A stretch of 64,000 nt of DNA from Tricharina praecox (Eukaryota). The stretch spans positions 992,001-1,056,000 of the forward strand of contig NW_026250404.1 in NCBI RefSeq assembly GCF_024521635.1. Reading direction: 5' to 3'. A program made the position numbers and the translations under genes. The notes beneath the pieces are model-generated. The model ran no database searches, was not told the DNA's origin, and saw only the letters and a list, made by a program, of their open reading frames with translations. Below, one piece after another: positions 23,800 through 28,491 of the stretch; positions within the stretch are counted from its first letter, which is position 1, and each line of letters starts with the position of its first letter.

Positions 23800-24141
23800 T
23801 GCGATGCGTGCGGGAGGAAGCGCATGAAACTCTCTACGCGTGCTCGGATTGATACTTGTAGCTGCGATGACCGGATCAATTCTTGTCTGTCCGTCTGCTC
23901 TGGCTTGTTCCAGAGGAAGATATCGGGCTGGTGGAGGATGCATCATCACCGCCCACGCGGTGAGAGCTGGGGATAGACATTGAGACGTGCACGAACACGC
24001 AACGCATATTCACTTCTTTCGTGTGTATAGAGTACGGACATCACTTTTATTCCTACATTTCCGGATCAAAAAACGAAATATTAACGAAAGAAACGAACTA
24101 CATCACAATCTATGAGACAAATCCACATCTATCATGGGTTT

Positions 24142-25351
24142 TCACTTCTGCTCCTTCTTGACCGCGCGACCCTTGACCCTCCGTCTCGGCAGTCCCTCCC
24201 CACTCCTAACCAATTTCTTCGCCACCTTCTTGACATTAGCAGCCGGTAACACCTCGTCGGCCGACTCGGAATCATCAACGATTTCCTCCTCCTCCTCAGC
24301 CTCCGCCTCGACCACAGCCTTCTTGGGCATGAACCGACCCAACGTGATTCCCCAGATACCCATAGGCAGCTTAACCAGCGTGGTATCGCGCCACCTGGCA
24401 CCCGAGATCTCCTTTGGATCTAGCAAGAGCTCTTCAGGTCCATCCTCCGTCTCGTTGAGCAGGAAAACGTCGCCATTGGGATCAACCATGAAGGTCTTTC
24501 CGTTGGCTTGGCCGACCCTCTTGCGCTGCGCCGTGGGCGGGGACGCAGTCCCGCTGGCACCCCTCTTGGAAGCAGCCTTCTTGGGCTTAACCATCGCCGC
24601 AGAGCTTGCCTCGCCCAACCCCTCAAGACCAGGGATTCCCGCGGGCCCGTACGCAGCAGTCCTGACGTCGCGGATGACATCCTTCATGAAATCCTTCTGT
24701 CTCTTGGCCGTCAAGCCCAGCACCGCATAATGCGCAACGCCAACAAACAGGTAGATTCCAATGAGGACGCTTCCAATGCCCGGCCTGAACCTCGCATAGT
24801 AATAACCGGTGCCGCGCCACTTCGGGAATCCATTCCTGAGGAAGTGATCGTAGCGGTCCCGGCCCTCGCCACGGAGGACATTGGCGATCAGTCCCAGACG
24901 TGCGAAGCGCTCGCTCGCCTTCTTGCGAAGGGCGGCTTGCTGAGACCGACCCAGTCCTTTCGCCGGCTTGAACTTGTCGGGGTGCAGACGGGCACTGGTC
25001 TTGCGGTAGGCCTTGTTAATGTCGTCCATGGACGCCGCGGGACCGTTCTTGACGCCGACGAAATCTACGCAGGAATATGAGTAACCCGAGCGGATGCAGA
25101 TGGTTCACGGGTGGGTGGTGAGCGGGTGTACCGTAGAATGTTACTCCCTCCCCCTCGTTCATCTCCAGCTCATCGCGGATGCGAAAGATTTCATGGTCTG
25201 CTCAAACTCAATCAGCTGTCATTCACTCACTCGACCCCCCCCTTCCCCTTTCCCGTGAGTGATTGTACGCACCCTCTTTGCTCCACCCATAGCCCAAGAC
25301 TCCAGCGAAGACGCTGGACAGCAGCAACGTGAATAGCGCTGCGGATCGCAT
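24142..25351 (-). CDS. ERJ5: ER membrane DnaJ-domain protein (Erj5-like), 3 exons
   Basis: Signal peptide MRSAALFTLLLSSVFAGVLGYG, WSKEDHEIFR, J-domain with HPD (SARLHPDK), RDRYDHFLRNGFPKWRGTGYYYARFRPG followed by a TM helix. Confidence 0.88.
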
Positions 25352-25839
25352 TGCTGTCGGTTGCGACGGATTTTGTTGGTTGTGTCGTTCTGCAAGGTGT
25401 GTTGTGGAAACGTGGAGGTTTATGTATTTCTCGAGCTGTGCTTGACTTGAGGCTAATTATGGCTAACGCTACCACCGTCACACAGGGTAGCGTGTCCTCA
25501 GTGAACTCTCAATCCGTGAAATCTTATCGCGATCATCGCCACACAGTATGATATGTATTGCTGAGAAGAATTTCCAATACATACGTGCGGCGTAACTTGA
25601 TCACTGCCATAAGAACCATTCGTTCCCTAGGTATTCACAGAATATGCACCGTCTGAATCGAGATGAAGCTGGTCCGAAATCACGTTACATATCATAAATT
25701 CGGAGTGCAGCACATTTCTAACTTGCAAAAGAAAACAGAAACCCAAAATATCTAAGTTCGAAAGGAAAAAAAGCAAAAGAGCAAGAGAAACCATCCCTAT
25801 CCAATCTACCGTTGACGCCAGAGCCAGAGCCATCATTAA

Positions 25840-26754
25840 CTACCGTTCGAGTTGCTTACGCAATTCCTCCCTCTTCCTGCGTCTAGCAAGTGCCTCGGCA
25901 GATAGAGAACTCGAGCTTCCTTCGCCATCATCACTTCCCGAGACAGAGACAATGTCCGACTCGGACCTGCTAGCAAGTGCTGGGTACTTGTTGGGGTAAT
26001 AGCCAGGTCGGGGAGGCAAATCGCGAGGTCCTGAAACAGGTGATGACCGAAAGTCAGAGGTGAGCTGGGAAGTTGAGGATGAAGGGCCGAGAGGAACAGG
26101 CGGAGTATGTCGAACAGACGAACGTATCGGCCGAGGTTCGAGATCCGAATCACCGGGAAATGCGCCAGCTAGTGATCCGAGAGGAGACAGAGGCGACGCT
26201 GTGTCTGGAATAAACTTGTCGATGACTGGAGGATCGGGATAAAGTTGTCTGGTGGTGACCGCCGGCTTCTGTCGTGGCGACACTTCTCCGATTGGCGCGA
26301 ATCCATTGCCCGTCAGGATGCCAGGTGCCGCCGCTCCCCCCACTGGTCTTGTCGGTAATCGTGGGGATGACGTCGGCACAGTAACCAACCTTCTTCTCTC
26401 CATCTCCAGACGCTCCCGCTCCAAGCGCTCCGCAACTCTCCGCTCGACCTCCTGTTCTATAGCCATATGTCTCTGCCACGCCTCCCACTCCCTTTCCTCC
26501 ATCTCCACCATACCGTCACCCCTCCTCTTGGCCCTCTCGAGCGCCCGCCTCGCTCGCTCCACCATAACATCATCGATGATTAAATCTTCGCTACTTGCAC
26601 TTGCACTTGAATAAAGGTTGAAAGAATTTTTTGTCGTCGCACCACTCCCCGGACCCCCACCAACCGCCCGCATTACTTCTCCCACCGCGCCCCCGGCTAC
26701 GCCCCCCATTGATCCATATCTTTCTTGATGTAAAGGAGTTCGCGGCTGGACCAT
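25840..26754 (-). CDS. Uncharacterised 304-aa intronless protein whose ATG overlaps the YIP3 stop codon (TAATG)
   Basis: Uninterrupted ORF MVQPRTPLHQERYG...; protein-like charged helix VERARRALERAKRRGDGMVEMEEREWEAW; S/P-rich disordered C-terminal half; U-rich 3'UTR-like sequence follows. Confidence 0.75.
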   Translation of the reverse strand: MVQPRTPLHQERYGSMGGVAGGAVGEVMRAVGGGPGSGATTKNSFNLYSSASASSEDLIIDDVMVERARRALERAKRRGDGMVEMEEREWEAWQRHMAIEQEVERRVAERLERERLEMERRRLVTVPTSSPRLPTRPVGGAAAPGILTGNGFAPIGEVSPRQKPAVTTRQLYPDPPVIDKFIPDTASPLSPLGSLAGAFPGDSDLEPRPIRSSVRHTPPVPLGPSSSTSQLTSDFRSSPVSGPRDLPPRPGYYPNKYPALASRSESDIVSVSGSDDGEGSSSSLSAEALARRRKREELRKQLER

Positions 26755-27419
26755 TAGACCGCCTCCTCGGAAAAAGCATTCTCGATCGGCTTGTCCATGA
26801 AGGATGCGTGTCCGAGGATGGTGACACCGGAAGCTCCGATGAGCCAGAGGACAGTGGAGAACGGAGAGGCGATGATGCCCAAGGGAACCGCGATAACCAA
26901 CAGCGTGGTGTAAAGCTGCGAGGGAGTGGCTCTAATAGGACCTATACAACAATTGTCAATCGAATGCACCCCGTGTGTTTGGCGGGAGGGCTGAACGTAC
27001 CGAGTTCCAGATCCCGACCTGCAAGTTTGCCGATACCCCACATGCCTCCGACGACGATACCGATCACAAAAAGCAAAAGGAGGTTGGTCAAGAGGGAGTA
27101 GATGCTTAGAATGACGAAGAGCACAGCATAGTTGCTAGCGAAGTACGACAGGTTGTAGGAGGCGCGGCTCTGGACCTCAGCAAAGTTCACAGGCTTCGAG
27201 ATACGCTTGAAATCGAAGAACTCGCCGAGAGGACGAATGTTCGAGAAGCGGTTGGCCAGAGGCATGCGGTTAGCACCTTCCTACAGGAGAAGCACCATCA
27301 GTACAGCTATCCCGAACCGAGAGCACACCAGCTTCGGAGGAGATAGAGGAACATACGGTGAAGCGGCCGAGTCCGAAGCGGTCGGAAATCATGCTGATGG
27401 GAATGGATATTCTCGACAT
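26754..27419 (-). CDS. YIP3: Prenylated Rab acceptor 1 / Yip3 (PRA1 family), 3 exons
   Basis: RPLGEFFDFKRISKPVNFAEVQSRASYNLSYFASNYA; STVLWLIGASGVTILGHASFMDKPIENAFSEEAV*. Introns 27356-27281 and 27000-26942. Confidence 0.95.
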
Positions 27420-28491
27420 GGCTGGTTATTGGGTTTTGGTTGGAGGAGGTTGTTTCGTTCCGAGTCTGATTTGCTGTGCAACTGGTTTGTGCTCTCCTAG
27501 CTAGGAGGGCGAAGATATATCTACTAAAAAAGCACTCAGGTGAGGAGTAAGTATCGTGTGTGTCAGAGAAGCTGACGCGGCGTTGAATGGTGGTCGTTAG
27601 AGCAATCCGTGGGTGATGCGACTGGAAAGGAGGGTGTTGGCTTGTGGGTAGTGAACTCCTTTTTGGGTTCTTCTGTTTCGACGTAGCAAAAGTTGCCAGC
27701 AAGCCCTCCGTAGCACCAAGGTGTGGCAGTGCAGCTAGTGGCGCTTTCCAGTCCAGGGTGCTTTAGGCTTTGGCATGTGCATAAAACGCCACAAGCAGTC
27801 CACGCGGCCCGGTTCTACGTCGCCCCGCTTTGGTCGGGCCCGTCGAATCACGATACCTGCAGGCCTCTGGTCAGCGAGGCTGGAGTCACTCTTCAGATCA
27901 CGGCGCAACAATACGCCGCGAATCAATATCCATAGGCATTCGGCGGCCTAATTGCACTTACGCAGGCGATTCCTATCCGGGGTGGCCGATCGAGTACTAC
28001 CAAGCTTCACTTTGGGCTTCGGTGGCTAAGATGAGTCCCTCGACTCCTCGCATTCTCAGACGGCGAGGCCTAATAGATATAAAATATCTCGGAAAAGCAC
28101 ATAGTTCAAATTCCCGGCCCGATGTGAACTAGTGAGTGATATCGCATGAACCCAAGCAGTTCGACTCTGCCCGTGATTTCGTATTCGCGATGGCAAAGGT
28201 GCTTACATGCCAATTAAGCGAGTTTTTATGGTGTAGAGGGCCACTCTGTATTGGATTCGGAAAGTTAACGTTCATGAATCAATGAGGTCAGAGTTTGAGG
28301 GTTGCAGTGGTATACGGGCTTCGACCGTTCGACGGGCATCGGAACGTCTTATGAATCACCTAGAACATGTATTTGCTGGATAAAGAATAAAAGTTACTCT
28401 CTTGAATTCTAGATCTTATCCGGTGTCCGAAGACTCGTCAATGGCCCCTTCACAAAAAAAACCCCATCATTCACAGCCAACCCGCCCCTCG

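What the first reader, a model, noticed from the sequence alone, without database searches (positions are those of the whole stretch)
25840..27419. YIP3/PRA1 coupled by a TAATG stop-start overlap to a 304-aa unknown ORF: candidate nuclear bicistronic, termination-reinitiation system
Seen (minus strand): ...GAG GAG GCG GTC TAA TG GTC CAG CCG...; the last base of the YIP3 stop (26754) is the A of the ATG of an intact 304-codon ORF in the -1 frame. There is no intergenic space for a terminator or promoter, and U-rich 3'UTR-like sequence appears only after ORF2. YIP3 is complete (ends FSEEAV*), so this does not look like a frameshift error. Established: UAAUG/AUGA overlaps drive coupled termination-reinitiation in fungal victoriviruses and hypoviruses and in influenza B BM2, but are exceptional in nuclear genes. 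Inference: one mRNA yields Yip3 plus a partner protein (charged helix VERARRALERAKRRG..., then a disordered S/P-rich tail), possibly with an upstream reinitiation element inside the YIP3 CDS. The -1 frame is also open for some distance upstream, so frameshifting or an internal promoter are alternatives.
Basis: partly seen in the sequence, partly recalled or inferred. Interest (0 to 1): 0.85.

Follow-up and report, generated by a model that had tools for sequence, protein, structure and literature searches.

The report
Known YIP3 ribosomal frameshift gene
The "second gene" behind YIP3 is the already described tail of YIP3 that filamentous ascomycetes make by a programmed -1 ribosomal frameshift, so the TAATG overlap is a by-product and not a new stop-restart system.

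Summary
On the minus strand the YIP3/PRA1 stop (TAA, 26756-26754) shares its last A with the ATG of an intact 304-codon ORF (26754-25840).

The favoured reading, termination-reinitiation on a bicistronic mRNA, is not supported. Malagnac et al. 2013 (PMC3777964) showed that Podospora anserina YIP3 makes a short form and a long form. [quoted passage not shown]

- **Signal in the window:** it has the same heptamer (26775-26769) and spacer, and a stem 1 with a 3-nt bulge. Its stem 2 uses the TG of the "start" ATG.
- **Related loci:** 52 of 54 metagenome loci ending in ENAFSEEAV* carry an open -1-frame ORF at the stop. The codon at the window's ATG position is ATG in 12, GTG in 5 and GGT or GAT in 35.
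- **Homology:** the ORF's family is homologous across these groups (hhalign 93%).
- **RNA:** one spliced RNA contig spans both ORFs with no change.

Predicted products are 176 aa and 481 aa. The feature is already known and of low interest.

The parts
27357..27419 (-). YIP3 exon 1 (ATG at 27419; 21 codons, ends in phase 0)
   Evidence: Sequence. The RNA contig joint skips 27281-27356. The spliced CDS translates to 176 aa.
27281..27356 (-). YIP3 intron 1 (76 nt, GTATGT..TAG)
   Evidence: Joint in the contigs of runs X1 and X2. Intron ends checked.
27001..27280 (-). YIP3 exon 2
   Evidence: Pfam PRA1 at E 1.7e-24 on window:27002-27280:-.
26942..27000 (-). YIP3 intron 2 (59 nt, GTACGT..TAG)
   Evidence: Joint in the contigs of runs X1 and X2. 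Intron ends checked.
26754..26941 (-). YIP3 exon 3 in the zero frame, ending ...PIENAFSEEAV plus TAA (26756-26754)
   Evidence: Pfam PRA1 at E 5e-11. Sequence.
26769..26775 (-). Frameshift (slippery) heptamer T_TTT_TCC, covering YIP3 codons 171-172 and the last base of codon 170
   Evidence: Columns 1-5 (TTTTT) are invariant in the 31-sequence alignment A3, and 29 of 31 rows read TTTTTCC. This is the same heptamer as the P. anserina shift site (PMC3777964).
26767..26768 (-). 2-nt spacer GA between the heptamer and stem 1
   Evidence: The paper reports that the pseudoknot starts 2 nt after the slippery site.
26759..26766 (-). Stem 1, 5' arm GGAGGCGG
   Evidence: All 8 pairs are invariant and 100% paired in alignments A4 and A5.
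26735..26745 (-). Stem 1, 3' arm CCGC (26745-26742), 3-nt bulge GAA (26741-26739), then CTCC (26738-26735)
   Evidence: The paper describes a highly conserved 3-nt bulge in stem 1.
26749..26753 (-).
   Evidence: Pairs 26-69 to 30-65 of A4 are fully paired.
26710..26714 (-). Stem 2, 3' arm GATCA (within the codons for RYGS of the 3' ORF)
   Evidence: Pair 29-66 shows a compensatory change (UA 7, UG 2, CG 1).
   Evidence: Relatives. Homology to the ATG-less group.
25706..27632 (-). Extent of RNA contigs over the gene
   Evidence: The X1 contig of 1725 nt covers 27601-25742 with both introns removed and no other change. X2 has two contigs, 27632-26759 and 26644-25706.

Best explanation
The stretch 27419-25840 (minus strand) is a single gene, the orthologue of Podospora anserina PaYIP3. 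One mRNA carries the YIP3/PRA1 frame and a longer, less conserved 3' ORF in the -1 frame. Most ribosomes stop at TAA and make the 176-aa (19.2 kDa) Yip3. A minority slip back one base at U_UUU_UCC (26775-26769), four codons before the stop codon. A pseudoknot starting 2 nt downstream promotes the slip. These ribosomes read on in the -1 frame (...ENAFS/F RGGGL MVQPRTP...) and make a 481-aa (52.2 kDa) long form, which is Yip3 with a mostly disordered, charged-helix tail. The ATG that overlaps the stop is an internal Met codon of the long form, and its T and G belong to pseudoknot stem 2.

Shown here: the sequence signals, their conservation, the homology of the 3' ORF, the conserved gene order, and RNA contiguity. 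Shown elsewhere (P. anserina): that the long form is made and that the mRNA is neither spliced nor edited at the site. Inferred: that frameshifting occurs in this organism, and how efficiently.
For: 1. **The published signal is present letter for letter.** The window has T_TTT_TCC, a GA spacer, and stem 1 GGAGGCGG pairing with CCGC-[GAA bulge]-CTCC. PMC3777964 describes U UUU UCC near codon 170, a pseudoknot 2 nt downstream and a conserved 3-nt bulge in stem 1.

2. **The arrangement is general.** A pattern for ENAFSEEAV plus a stop codon found 54 metagenome loci.
- 52 of 54 have an open -1-frame ORF starting at the stop. In 36 it is complete, 239-489 codons long. In 16 it is still open where the contig ends.
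- 2 of 54 (L010, L047) have none.

3. **The ATG is dispensable.** At the window's ATG position, 12 of these 52 loci have ATG, 5 have GTG, and 35 have GGT or GAT. The peptide that follows (PRTP...GP/GRP) is kept in all of them.
- In the GTG species (P0012) the first Met comes only after the conserved helix.
- P0031 reads ...RECFFRGGGL-VVSPRTP straight across the junction.

4. **The shift is confined to the end of YIP3.** The -1 frame is closed only 9-12 codons upstream of the junction in 21 of the 54 loci. Entry into that frame must therefore happen within the last 9-12 codons of YIP3, where the heptamer lies.

5. **The structure is kept.**
- In the 10 sequences of the window's group, 97.1% of pair cells pair, against at most 55.7% when the partners are slid.
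- In the 21 ATG-less sequences, 100% pair, against at most 58.9% slid.
- Nine synonymous sites of the YIP3 C-terminus are invariant in nearly all loci.

6. **The 3' ORF is one family.** The profile of the window's group against the ATG-less group gives hhalign probability 93.1%, E 3.2e-7, on the helix LVERA...G..V.L..E..A. Both groups share the N-terminal motif.

7. **Gene order is conserved.** In 4 of 4 named Pezizales where both accessions were seen, PRA1 and the ORF homologue have consecutive accession numbers on one contig. The species are Pyronema omphalodes, Geopyxis carbonaria, Sphaerosporella brunnea and Ascodesmis nigricans.

8. **RNA.** The X1 contig (1725 nt) has both YIP3 introns removed. 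It runs through the junction and the whole 3' ORF with 0 other letters and 0 gaps.
Against: - No protein or ribosome data exist for this organism. Frameshifting here is inferred from conservation and from P. anserina.
- Covariation support in my alignments is weak. There is one compensatory pair in each alignment, and 144 of 500 and 150 of 500 shuffles reach the observed values. Most paired columns never vary.
- The heptamer is non-canonical, and the reporter value in yeast was only about 1%.
- For Tuber melanosporum, also in Pezizales, the paper suggests a simple stem-loop rather than a pseudoknot.
- A minimum-free-energy fold of the window's stretch alone is no better than shuffles (z +1.17). 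That program cannot model pseudoknots.
- In the window's own lineage an in-frame ATG does sit on the stop, so some independent initiation cannot be excluded.
- A contig across two ORFs does not prove a single RNA molecule (caveat).
- I could not compare directly with the P. anserina sequence, because no tool held it.
Confidence: 0.88

Rival explanations
1. Termination-reinitiation. Ribosomes finish Yip3 at UAA, the 40S subunit stays on the mRNA and restarts at the overlapping AUG, giving a free 304-aa protein.
For: The UAAUG overlap exists in the window and in two close relatives, L024 and L049. Twelve of the 17 loci in the window's group have an in-frame ATG 0 or 3 nt after the stop. A conserved structure sits at the site. 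One RNA contig spans both ORFs.
Against: - The codon is GTG in 5 of 17 loci of the same group. It flips between close relatives (L006 ATG and L008 GTG; L054 ATG and L026 GTG).
- It is GGT or GAT in all 35 loci of the other group, yet the peptide right behind it is conserved.
- The GTG species has no Met before the conserved helix.
- The T and G of the ATG are explained by stem 2.
- In P. anserina the product is a fusion protein, an 88-kDa band with GFP.
- No element complementary to 18S rRNA could be sought, because no rRNA sequence was available.
Confidence: 0.05
2. Two overlapping transcripts. An internal promoter inside YIP3 gives a separate mRNA whose first AUG is 26754-26752, and the 304-aa protein is made by ordinary scanning.
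For: RNA contigs cannot tell one molecule from overlapping ones. In run X2 the two ORFs lie on two contigs with an uncovered gap at 26645-26758. NCBI annotations of 4 Pezizales list the ORF as a separate gene.
Against: - An ATG at 26779 opens a 62-aa out-of-frame ORF that crosses the start. A scanning mRNA would therefore need a 5' end within about 25 nt of the ATG.
- Relatives without any ATG rule this out as the ancestral route.
- The next gene downstream has a clear RNA-free gap of about 330 nt before it (25742 to 25412), whereas none exists here in X1.
- In P. anserina, 12 cDNAs showed one mRNA.
Confidence: 0.04
3. Splicing, editing or transcriptional slippage changes the frame in the RNA, for example an alternative acceptor at the stop codon or an extra U in the T5 run.
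For: In loci with a TAG stop, CTAG| could act as an acceptor, and exon 2 of the window's YIP3 ends in phase 1, which would be in frame. Adding one T to the T5 run would also give the -1 frame (my reading).
Against: - The window has TAA, so there is no AG at that site.
- The 35 ATG-less loci have an intronless YIP3 frame of 176 codons or more, even on contigs of 50-345 kb, so no upstream donor is available.
- The X1 RNA contig shows 0 other letters, 0 gaps and only the two known joints.
- P. anserina cDNAs were identical to the gene.
Confidence: 0.02

Closest known systems
PaYIP3 programmed -1 ribosomal frameshift of Pezizomycotina (Malagnac et al. 2013, PLoS One 8:e73772; summarised in Atkins et al. 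2016, NAR 44:7007)
   Same: - The 5' ORF is YIP3/PRA1.
- The 3' ORF has no known domain and lies in the -1 frame.
- The shift heptamer is U_UUU_UCC at about codon 170.
- The structure starts 2 nt downstream, with a G-C-rich stem 1 carrying a 3-nt bulge.
- One mRNA covers both frames.
   Different: - Here YIP3 has two introns inside the CDS. P. anserina has one intron in the 5'UTR, and the ATG-less loci are intronless.
- The 3' ORF is shorter, so the long form is 481 aa (52.2 kDa) against 61.6 kDa.
- The codon behind the stop is ATG, which gives the eye-catching TAATG.
- Stem 2 in the window is only 5 bp, with one G-U pair.
- Nothing has been tested experimentally in this organism.
UAAUG/AUGA termination-reinitiation of victoriviruses, hypoviruses and influenza B BM2
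   Same: The stop and start codons overlap in a pentanucleotide, the downstream frame is -1, and an RNA structure lies nearby.
   Different: Here the AUG is not conserved. The peptide encoded right after it is conserved even where no start codon exists. The homologous system yields a fusion protein.
PEG10/Edr and Ma3, mammalian cellular -1 frameshift genes (mentioned in PMC3777964)
   Same: A -1 frameshift with a pseudoknot extends a cellular protein. Edr also has a 3-nt bulge in its pseudoknot.
   Different: Those genes derive from retroelements. YIP3 shows no such signature (the paper's statement).
Fungal bicistronic genes, e.g. glpks3-glnrps7 of Glarea lozoyensis (PMC4471562) and reinitiation-based bicistronic expression in yeast (PMC11952965); search listing and abstract starts only
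   Same: One fungal nuclear mRNA carries two reading frames.
   Different: Those cases give two separate proteins from two cistrons. Here the second frame is reached by recoding and is fused to the first.

Membership tests
YIP3 -1 frameshift gene of Pezizomycotina (PaYIP3 type) | The 5' ORF is an orthologue of YIP3/PRA1 | tested here: met
   Pfam PRA1 at E 1.7e-24 and 5e-11 on exons 2 and 3. The C-terminus ENAFSEEAV is identical to Pyronema PRA1.
YIP3 -1 frameshift gene of Pezizomycotina (PaYIP3 type) | A long 3' ORF in the -1 frame abuts the end of YIP3, has no known domain and is restricted to Pezizomycotina | tested here: met
   The ORF lies in the -1 frame. No Pfam family hits the window's ORF or 6 of 6 relatives. 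The family is small, with 25 representatives at E<=0.001. Every named member is in Pezizales. The nearest ESM Atlas clusters are Ascomycota. Absence outside Pezizomycotina was not tested beyond these searches.
YIP3 -1 frameshift gene of Pezizomycotina (PaYIP3 type) | Shift site U_UUU_UCC in the zero frame near codon 170 | tested here: met
   T_TTT_TCC at 26775-26769, with TTT as codon 171 and TCC as codon 172. The heptamer is identical in 29 of 31 aligned sequences. L016 has TTTTTGC and L053 has TTTTTCA.
YIP3 -1 frameshift gene of Pezizomycotina (PaYIP3 type) | A stem-loop or pseudoknot starts 2 nt after the shift site, with a 3-nt bulge in stem 1 | tested here: met
   Base-pairing potential is present: 97.1% of cells pair in A4, and both parts of stem 1 pair 100%. 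The bulge is GAA. Stem 2 in the window is 5 bp. Covariation is weak, with 1 compensatory pair and a non-significant shuffle control. Folding itself was not shown.
YIP3 -1 frameshift gene of Pezizomycotina (PaYIP3 type) | The 3' ORF is homologous to the 3' ORF of other Pezizomycotina | tested here: met
   hhalign of A2 against A6 gives probability 93.1%, E 3.2e-7. The two groups share the N-terminal PRTP...G(P/R)P motif. That the ATG-less group is of the P. anserina type is inferred from the paper's description. No P. anserina sequence was available to compare.
YIP3 -1 frameshift gene of Pezizomycotina (PaYIP3 type) | The RNA is neither spliced nor edited at the junction | tested here: met
   The X1 contig runs through 26939-25742 with 0 other letters and 0 gaps. 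Contigs drop rare variants.
YIP3 -1 frameshift gene of Pezizomycotina (PaYIP3 type) | A single mRNA molecule spans both ORFs | tested here: inconclusive
   One 1725-nt RNA contig spans both ORFs in X1, and two contigs do so in X2. A contig cannot prove a single molecule.
YIP3 -1 frameshift gene of Pezizomycotina (PaYIP3 type) | A long fusion protein is made | not testable with these tools
   Shown only for P. anserina, as an 88-kDa GFP fusion.
Termination-reinitiation (UAAUG type) | The stop and restart codons overlap or lie close together | tested here: met
   TAATG at 26756-26752.
Termination-reinitiation (UAAUG type) | The restart codon is kept wherever the downstream protein is kept | tested here: not met
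   ATG in 12, GTG in 5 and GGT or GAT in 35 of the 52 loci with the ORF.
Termination-reinitiation (UAAUG type) | An upstream tethering element (18S-complementary motif or upstream pseudoknot) | not tested
   No 18S rRNA sequence of this organism was available. The conserved structure lies across and downstream of the stop, not upstream.
Termination-reinitiation (UAAUG type) | The downstream product is a separate polypeptide | not testable with these tools
   This needs protein data.

The most novel reading that the evidence does not exclude
In Pezizales the codon just behind the YIP3 stop has become AUG in most lineages (7 of 10 here, 0 or 3 nt after the stop), whereas the other Pezizomycotina loci have GGU or GAU there. 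Ribosomes that terminate Yip3 next to the pseudoknot might therefore also restart. That would release the 3'-ORF protein free of its membrane anchor, giving a third product from one mRNA by two recoding routes at a single site.
Probability: 0.06. Interest if true: 0.55.

Novelty: already known. Interest (0 to 1): 0.15.

Why it matters
The window adds one more orthologue to a published case. When reported, YIP3 was described as the first cellular gene not derived from a retroelement to use -1 frameshifting to lengthen a protein (the paper's claim).

The practical value lies in annotation.
- In 4 of 4 named Pezizales genomes checked, the 3' ORF is filed as a separate hypothetical protein. Some of these models have truncated N-termini, such as P0024 and P0005.
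- One Pyronema gene model fuses YIP3, the 3' ORF and the next gene into 790 aa.

The 52 loci collected here also give a broad, previously unassembled view of how invariant the signal is. They show that Pezizales keep pairing potential for stem 2.

Tried and rejected
- **, second query.** The stretch was mis-framed and its Rb_C hit (E 0.12) means nothing.
- A protein-pattern scan of metagenome contigs with A1 gave 598 pattern matches, none confirmed. This was a false negative, because one search found such loci in the same collection.
- No RNA holder was listed on record. X1 and X2 were only guessed to be RNA. Their spliced contigs show that they hold RNA.
- The uncovered gap in X2 (26645-26758) and the contig depths were not used as evidence. 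X4 laid nothing.
- No genome is held for this window.
- No earlier findings exist.
- The exon borders were 1-2 nt off, so the YIP3 translation printed there is wrong. It was corrected. The upstream-stop result stands.
- A search with the upstream-extended ORF (residues 1-90) scored nothing among 40 candidates. Only cluster representatives are searched.
- **Alternative-splicing idea** (acceptor at CTAG|, exon 2 in phase 1). Dropped after one search showed an intronless YIP3 in the ATG-less loci and one search showed no extra joint.
- The single-sequence fold was not better than shuffles (z +1.17). It cannot model pseudoknots.
- Variability by codon position over the first roughly 20 codons of the -1 frame showed no third-position excess in either group. 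This is uninformative, because the stretch is also constrained by the RNA structure.
- **Structure prediction and complex prediction.** Not used, because a Yip3-partner complex is moot if the product is a fusion.
Full report
**Observation.** One search shows ...GAG GAG GCG GTC TAA TG GTC CAG CCG... on the minus strand. The YIP3 stop is at 26756-26754, and its last A is the first base of an ATG that opens a 304-codon ORF ending at 25840. Intron borders come from spliced RNA contigs (skips of 76 nt and 59 nt, GT..AG on the minus strand). With them, YIP3 is 27419-27357 / 27280-27001 / 26941-26754, giving 176 aa that end PIENAFSEEAV*. Exons 2 and 3 hit Pfam PRA1. The ORF's frame stays open for 59 codons upstream, back to TAG 26934-26932.

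**The ORF is real.** It has no Pfam family.
- It has 11 relatives at E<=0.001 among 8000 scored candidates.
- A profile search found 25 representatives at E<=0.001, of which 21 are at <=1e-10 and 14 at <=1e-30.
- The named members are all Pezizales: Sphaerosporella brunnea, Geopyxis carbonaria, Ascodesmis nigricans, Pyronema omphalodes and Peziza echinospora.
- In the 25-sequence alignment A2, 19 of 25 begin with M/V-V-S-P-R-T-P...RYGPS, including members only 30% identical.
- Two of the six without this motif have full-length cluster mates that carry it (P0062, P0064).

The region directly behind the YIP3 stop is therefore protein-coding, which rules out a start at a downstream ATG.

**Gene order.** Consecutive accession numbers on one contig link PRA1 and the ORF homologue in 4 of 4 named species where I saw both:
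- Pyronema omphalodes: KAI5820799, KAI5820800 and KAI5820801, the last being the DnaJ-like neighbour, as in the window.
- Geopyxis carbonaria: KAI5795085 and KAI5795086.
- Sphaerosporella brunnea: KAA8906437 and KAA8906436.
- Ascodesmis nigricans: TGZ78374 and TGZ78373.

One Pyronema model (CCX11888.1, 790 aa) fuses PRA1, the ORF and the neighbour.

**The first clue against a restart.** P0031 is a 407-aa gene call from the cluster of P0012, which is 52% identical to the window's ORF. It reads the ORF's frame upstream...HGQAHRECFFRGGGL-VVSPRTP. This matches the window's ...HGQADRECFFRGGGL-MVQPRTP. The spacing and phase are the same, but the codon is Val. P0012 has no Met before the conserved helix.

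**The wider picture.** A DNA pattern for ENAFSEEAV plus a stop codon found 54 loci in metagenome contigs.
- In 52 of 54, the frame starting at the last base of the stop is open. In 36 the ORF is complete at 239-489 codons. In 16 it is still open where the contig ends.
- L010 and L047 are the exceptions.
- Seventeen loci resemble the window's ORF (blastp from L024 at E<=1.6e-7 for the 14 that were long enough to be tested). Their junctions are TAATGG, TAGTGG, TAGAGATGG, TAGGGATGG, TAAAGATGG, TAGAGGTGG and TAAAGGTGG. That gives ATG in 12 loci and GTG in 5.
- By lineage (85% clusters plus the window), 7 have ATG and 3 have GTG, with flips between close relatives.
- The other 35 loci read GTCTAG-GTGGTCGGCCGCGA, or GATGGTC in L016. 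In the ORF's frame this is GGT GGT CGG CCG CGA, or GAT... in L016, which gives GGRPRTPYD.P.WGRPPGAR with no start codon.
- In these 35 loci YIP3 is an uninterrupted frame of 176 codons or more, even on contigs of 50-345 kb.
- In 21 of the 54 loci the ORF's frame is closed 9-12 codons upstream of the junction.

Ribosomes must therefore enter this frame within the last few codons of YIP3.

**One family.** The two groups are homologous. hhalign of A2 against A6 gives probability 93.1%, E 3.2e-7, on the helix LVERA...G..V.L..E..A. The ESM Atlas places an ATG-less ORF next to Ascomycota clusters that are automatically named "Prenylated Rab acceptor 1" (score 0.94). I treat this as a lead only.

**It is published.** A passage in Atkins et al. 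2016 (PMC5009743; one passage seen) led to Malagnac et al. 2013 (PMC3777964). Of the latter I read the abstract, the whole Results, part 1 of the Discussion and term look-ups. I did not see figures or supplements. The paper reports the following:
- P. anserina PaYIP3 mRNA overlaps a YIP3 ORF and a larger 3' ORF that has no known domain and is found only in Pezizomycotina.
- Twelve cDNAs showed no editing or splicing at the site.
- A stem-loop or pseudoknot starts 2 nt downstream and has a conserved 3-nt bulge in stem 1.
- The long form was detected as an 88-kDa GFP fusion.
- Efficiency in a yeast reporter was about 1%.
- The extension is present in all Pezizomycotina examined except two species.
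- Tuber melanosporum may have only a stem-loop.
- Capnodiales and Ophiostomatales use the +1 frame.

The paper does not mention reinitiation or an AUG. A search for YIP3 plus frameshift found 11 papers, and by title and abstract only this one deals with it.

**The window fits the published signal.** The parts are as follows:
- heptamer TTTTTCC, 26775-26769;
- spacer GA;
- stem 1, GGAGGCGG (26766-26759) pairing with CCGC (26745-26742), bulge GAA, then CTCC (26738-26735);
- stem 2, TGGTC (26753-26749, which includes the TG of the ATG) pairing with GATCA (26714-26710).

On the 10 sequences of the window's group, 97.1% of pair cells pair, against at most 55.7% for slid partners. There is one compensatory pair, and the shuffle control is not significant (144/500). 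On the 21 ATG-less sequences, 100% pair against at most 58.9%, with one compensatory pair (150/500). The A of the ATG pairs in only 6 of the 10 sequences of the window's group, and not in the window itself. The predicted products are 176 aa (19.2 kDa) and 481 aa (52.2 kDa), with the junction ...PIENAFS-RGGGLMVQPRTP.

**RNA.** Runs X1 and X2 hold spliced contigs, so they contain RNA.
- The X1 contig of 1725 nt covers 27601-25742 with both introns removed and nothing else changed.
- X2 has two contigs, 27632-26759 and 26644-25706.
- The next gene's contig starts at 25412 or 25396.

This fits one mRNA, as in P. anserina, but contigs cannot prove it.

**Verdict.** The TAATG overlap is real but incidental. 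The feature is the known YIP3 -1 frameshift gene. Termination-reinitiation fails its key test, conservation of the restart codon. What remains open is whether the ATG acquired in Pezizales adds a minor restart route, and whether frameshifting has been kept in this species. The latter is inferred, not shown.

Noticed in passing
window 24000-25412 (-): The next gene downstream is a DnaJ-like gene (weak Pfam DnaJ hit, E 1.3e-4, below the cut-off). RNA contigs support two introns (skips 25065-25131 and 25198-25272) and a transcript starting near 25412 or 25396. The same neighbour follows YIP3 in Pyronema (P0050, KAI5820801).
   Followed up: partly
P0024, P0005, P0009, P0016, P0051 (NCBI records of Pezizales): The YIP3 3' ORF is annotated as a separate hypothetical protein in 4 named genomes. 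Some of these models start at downstream Met codons. In Pyronema omphalodes CBS 100304 it is fused with YIP3 and the DnaJ-like neighbour into one 790-aa model. In Pyronema domesticum, PRA1 and the 349-aa neighbour have consecutive accessions, and no 3'-ORF entry was seen.
   Followed up: partly
L016:71-154 and L053:1509-1592: Two loci carry variant heptamers, TTTTTGC (Cys codon) and TTTTTCA, with the rest of the signal unchanged. The T5 run is invariant in all 31 aligned sequences. This would fit slippage of the P-site tRNA-Phe alone, as the paper suggests.
   Followed up: no
A5 columns 52-62 (e.g. L012:1560-1570): The ATG-less loci have a conserved CCCC-NNN-GGGG mini-hairpin between stem 1 and the 3' arm of stem 2. 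It is absent from the window's group. It was not analysed.
   Followed up: no
window 26645-26758 (run X2): The only break in RNA-contig cover of the gene in X2 lies over the pseudoknot and the G-rich stretch behind it. No cause was established. It may be an assembly or filter effect.
   Followed up: no
window 26591-26779 (-): A 62-codon ORF in the third frame starts at an ATG inside the YIP3 C-terminus (GAG AAT GCT) and crosses the junction. It would block scanning to the 26754 ATG from any upstream 5' end. No sign of conservation was sought.
   Followed up: no
(metagenome contigs): The protein-pattern scan reported no relatives, although the collection holds at least 17 loci with window-like ORFs. 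A negative result from that tool should not be read as absence.
   Followed up: yes
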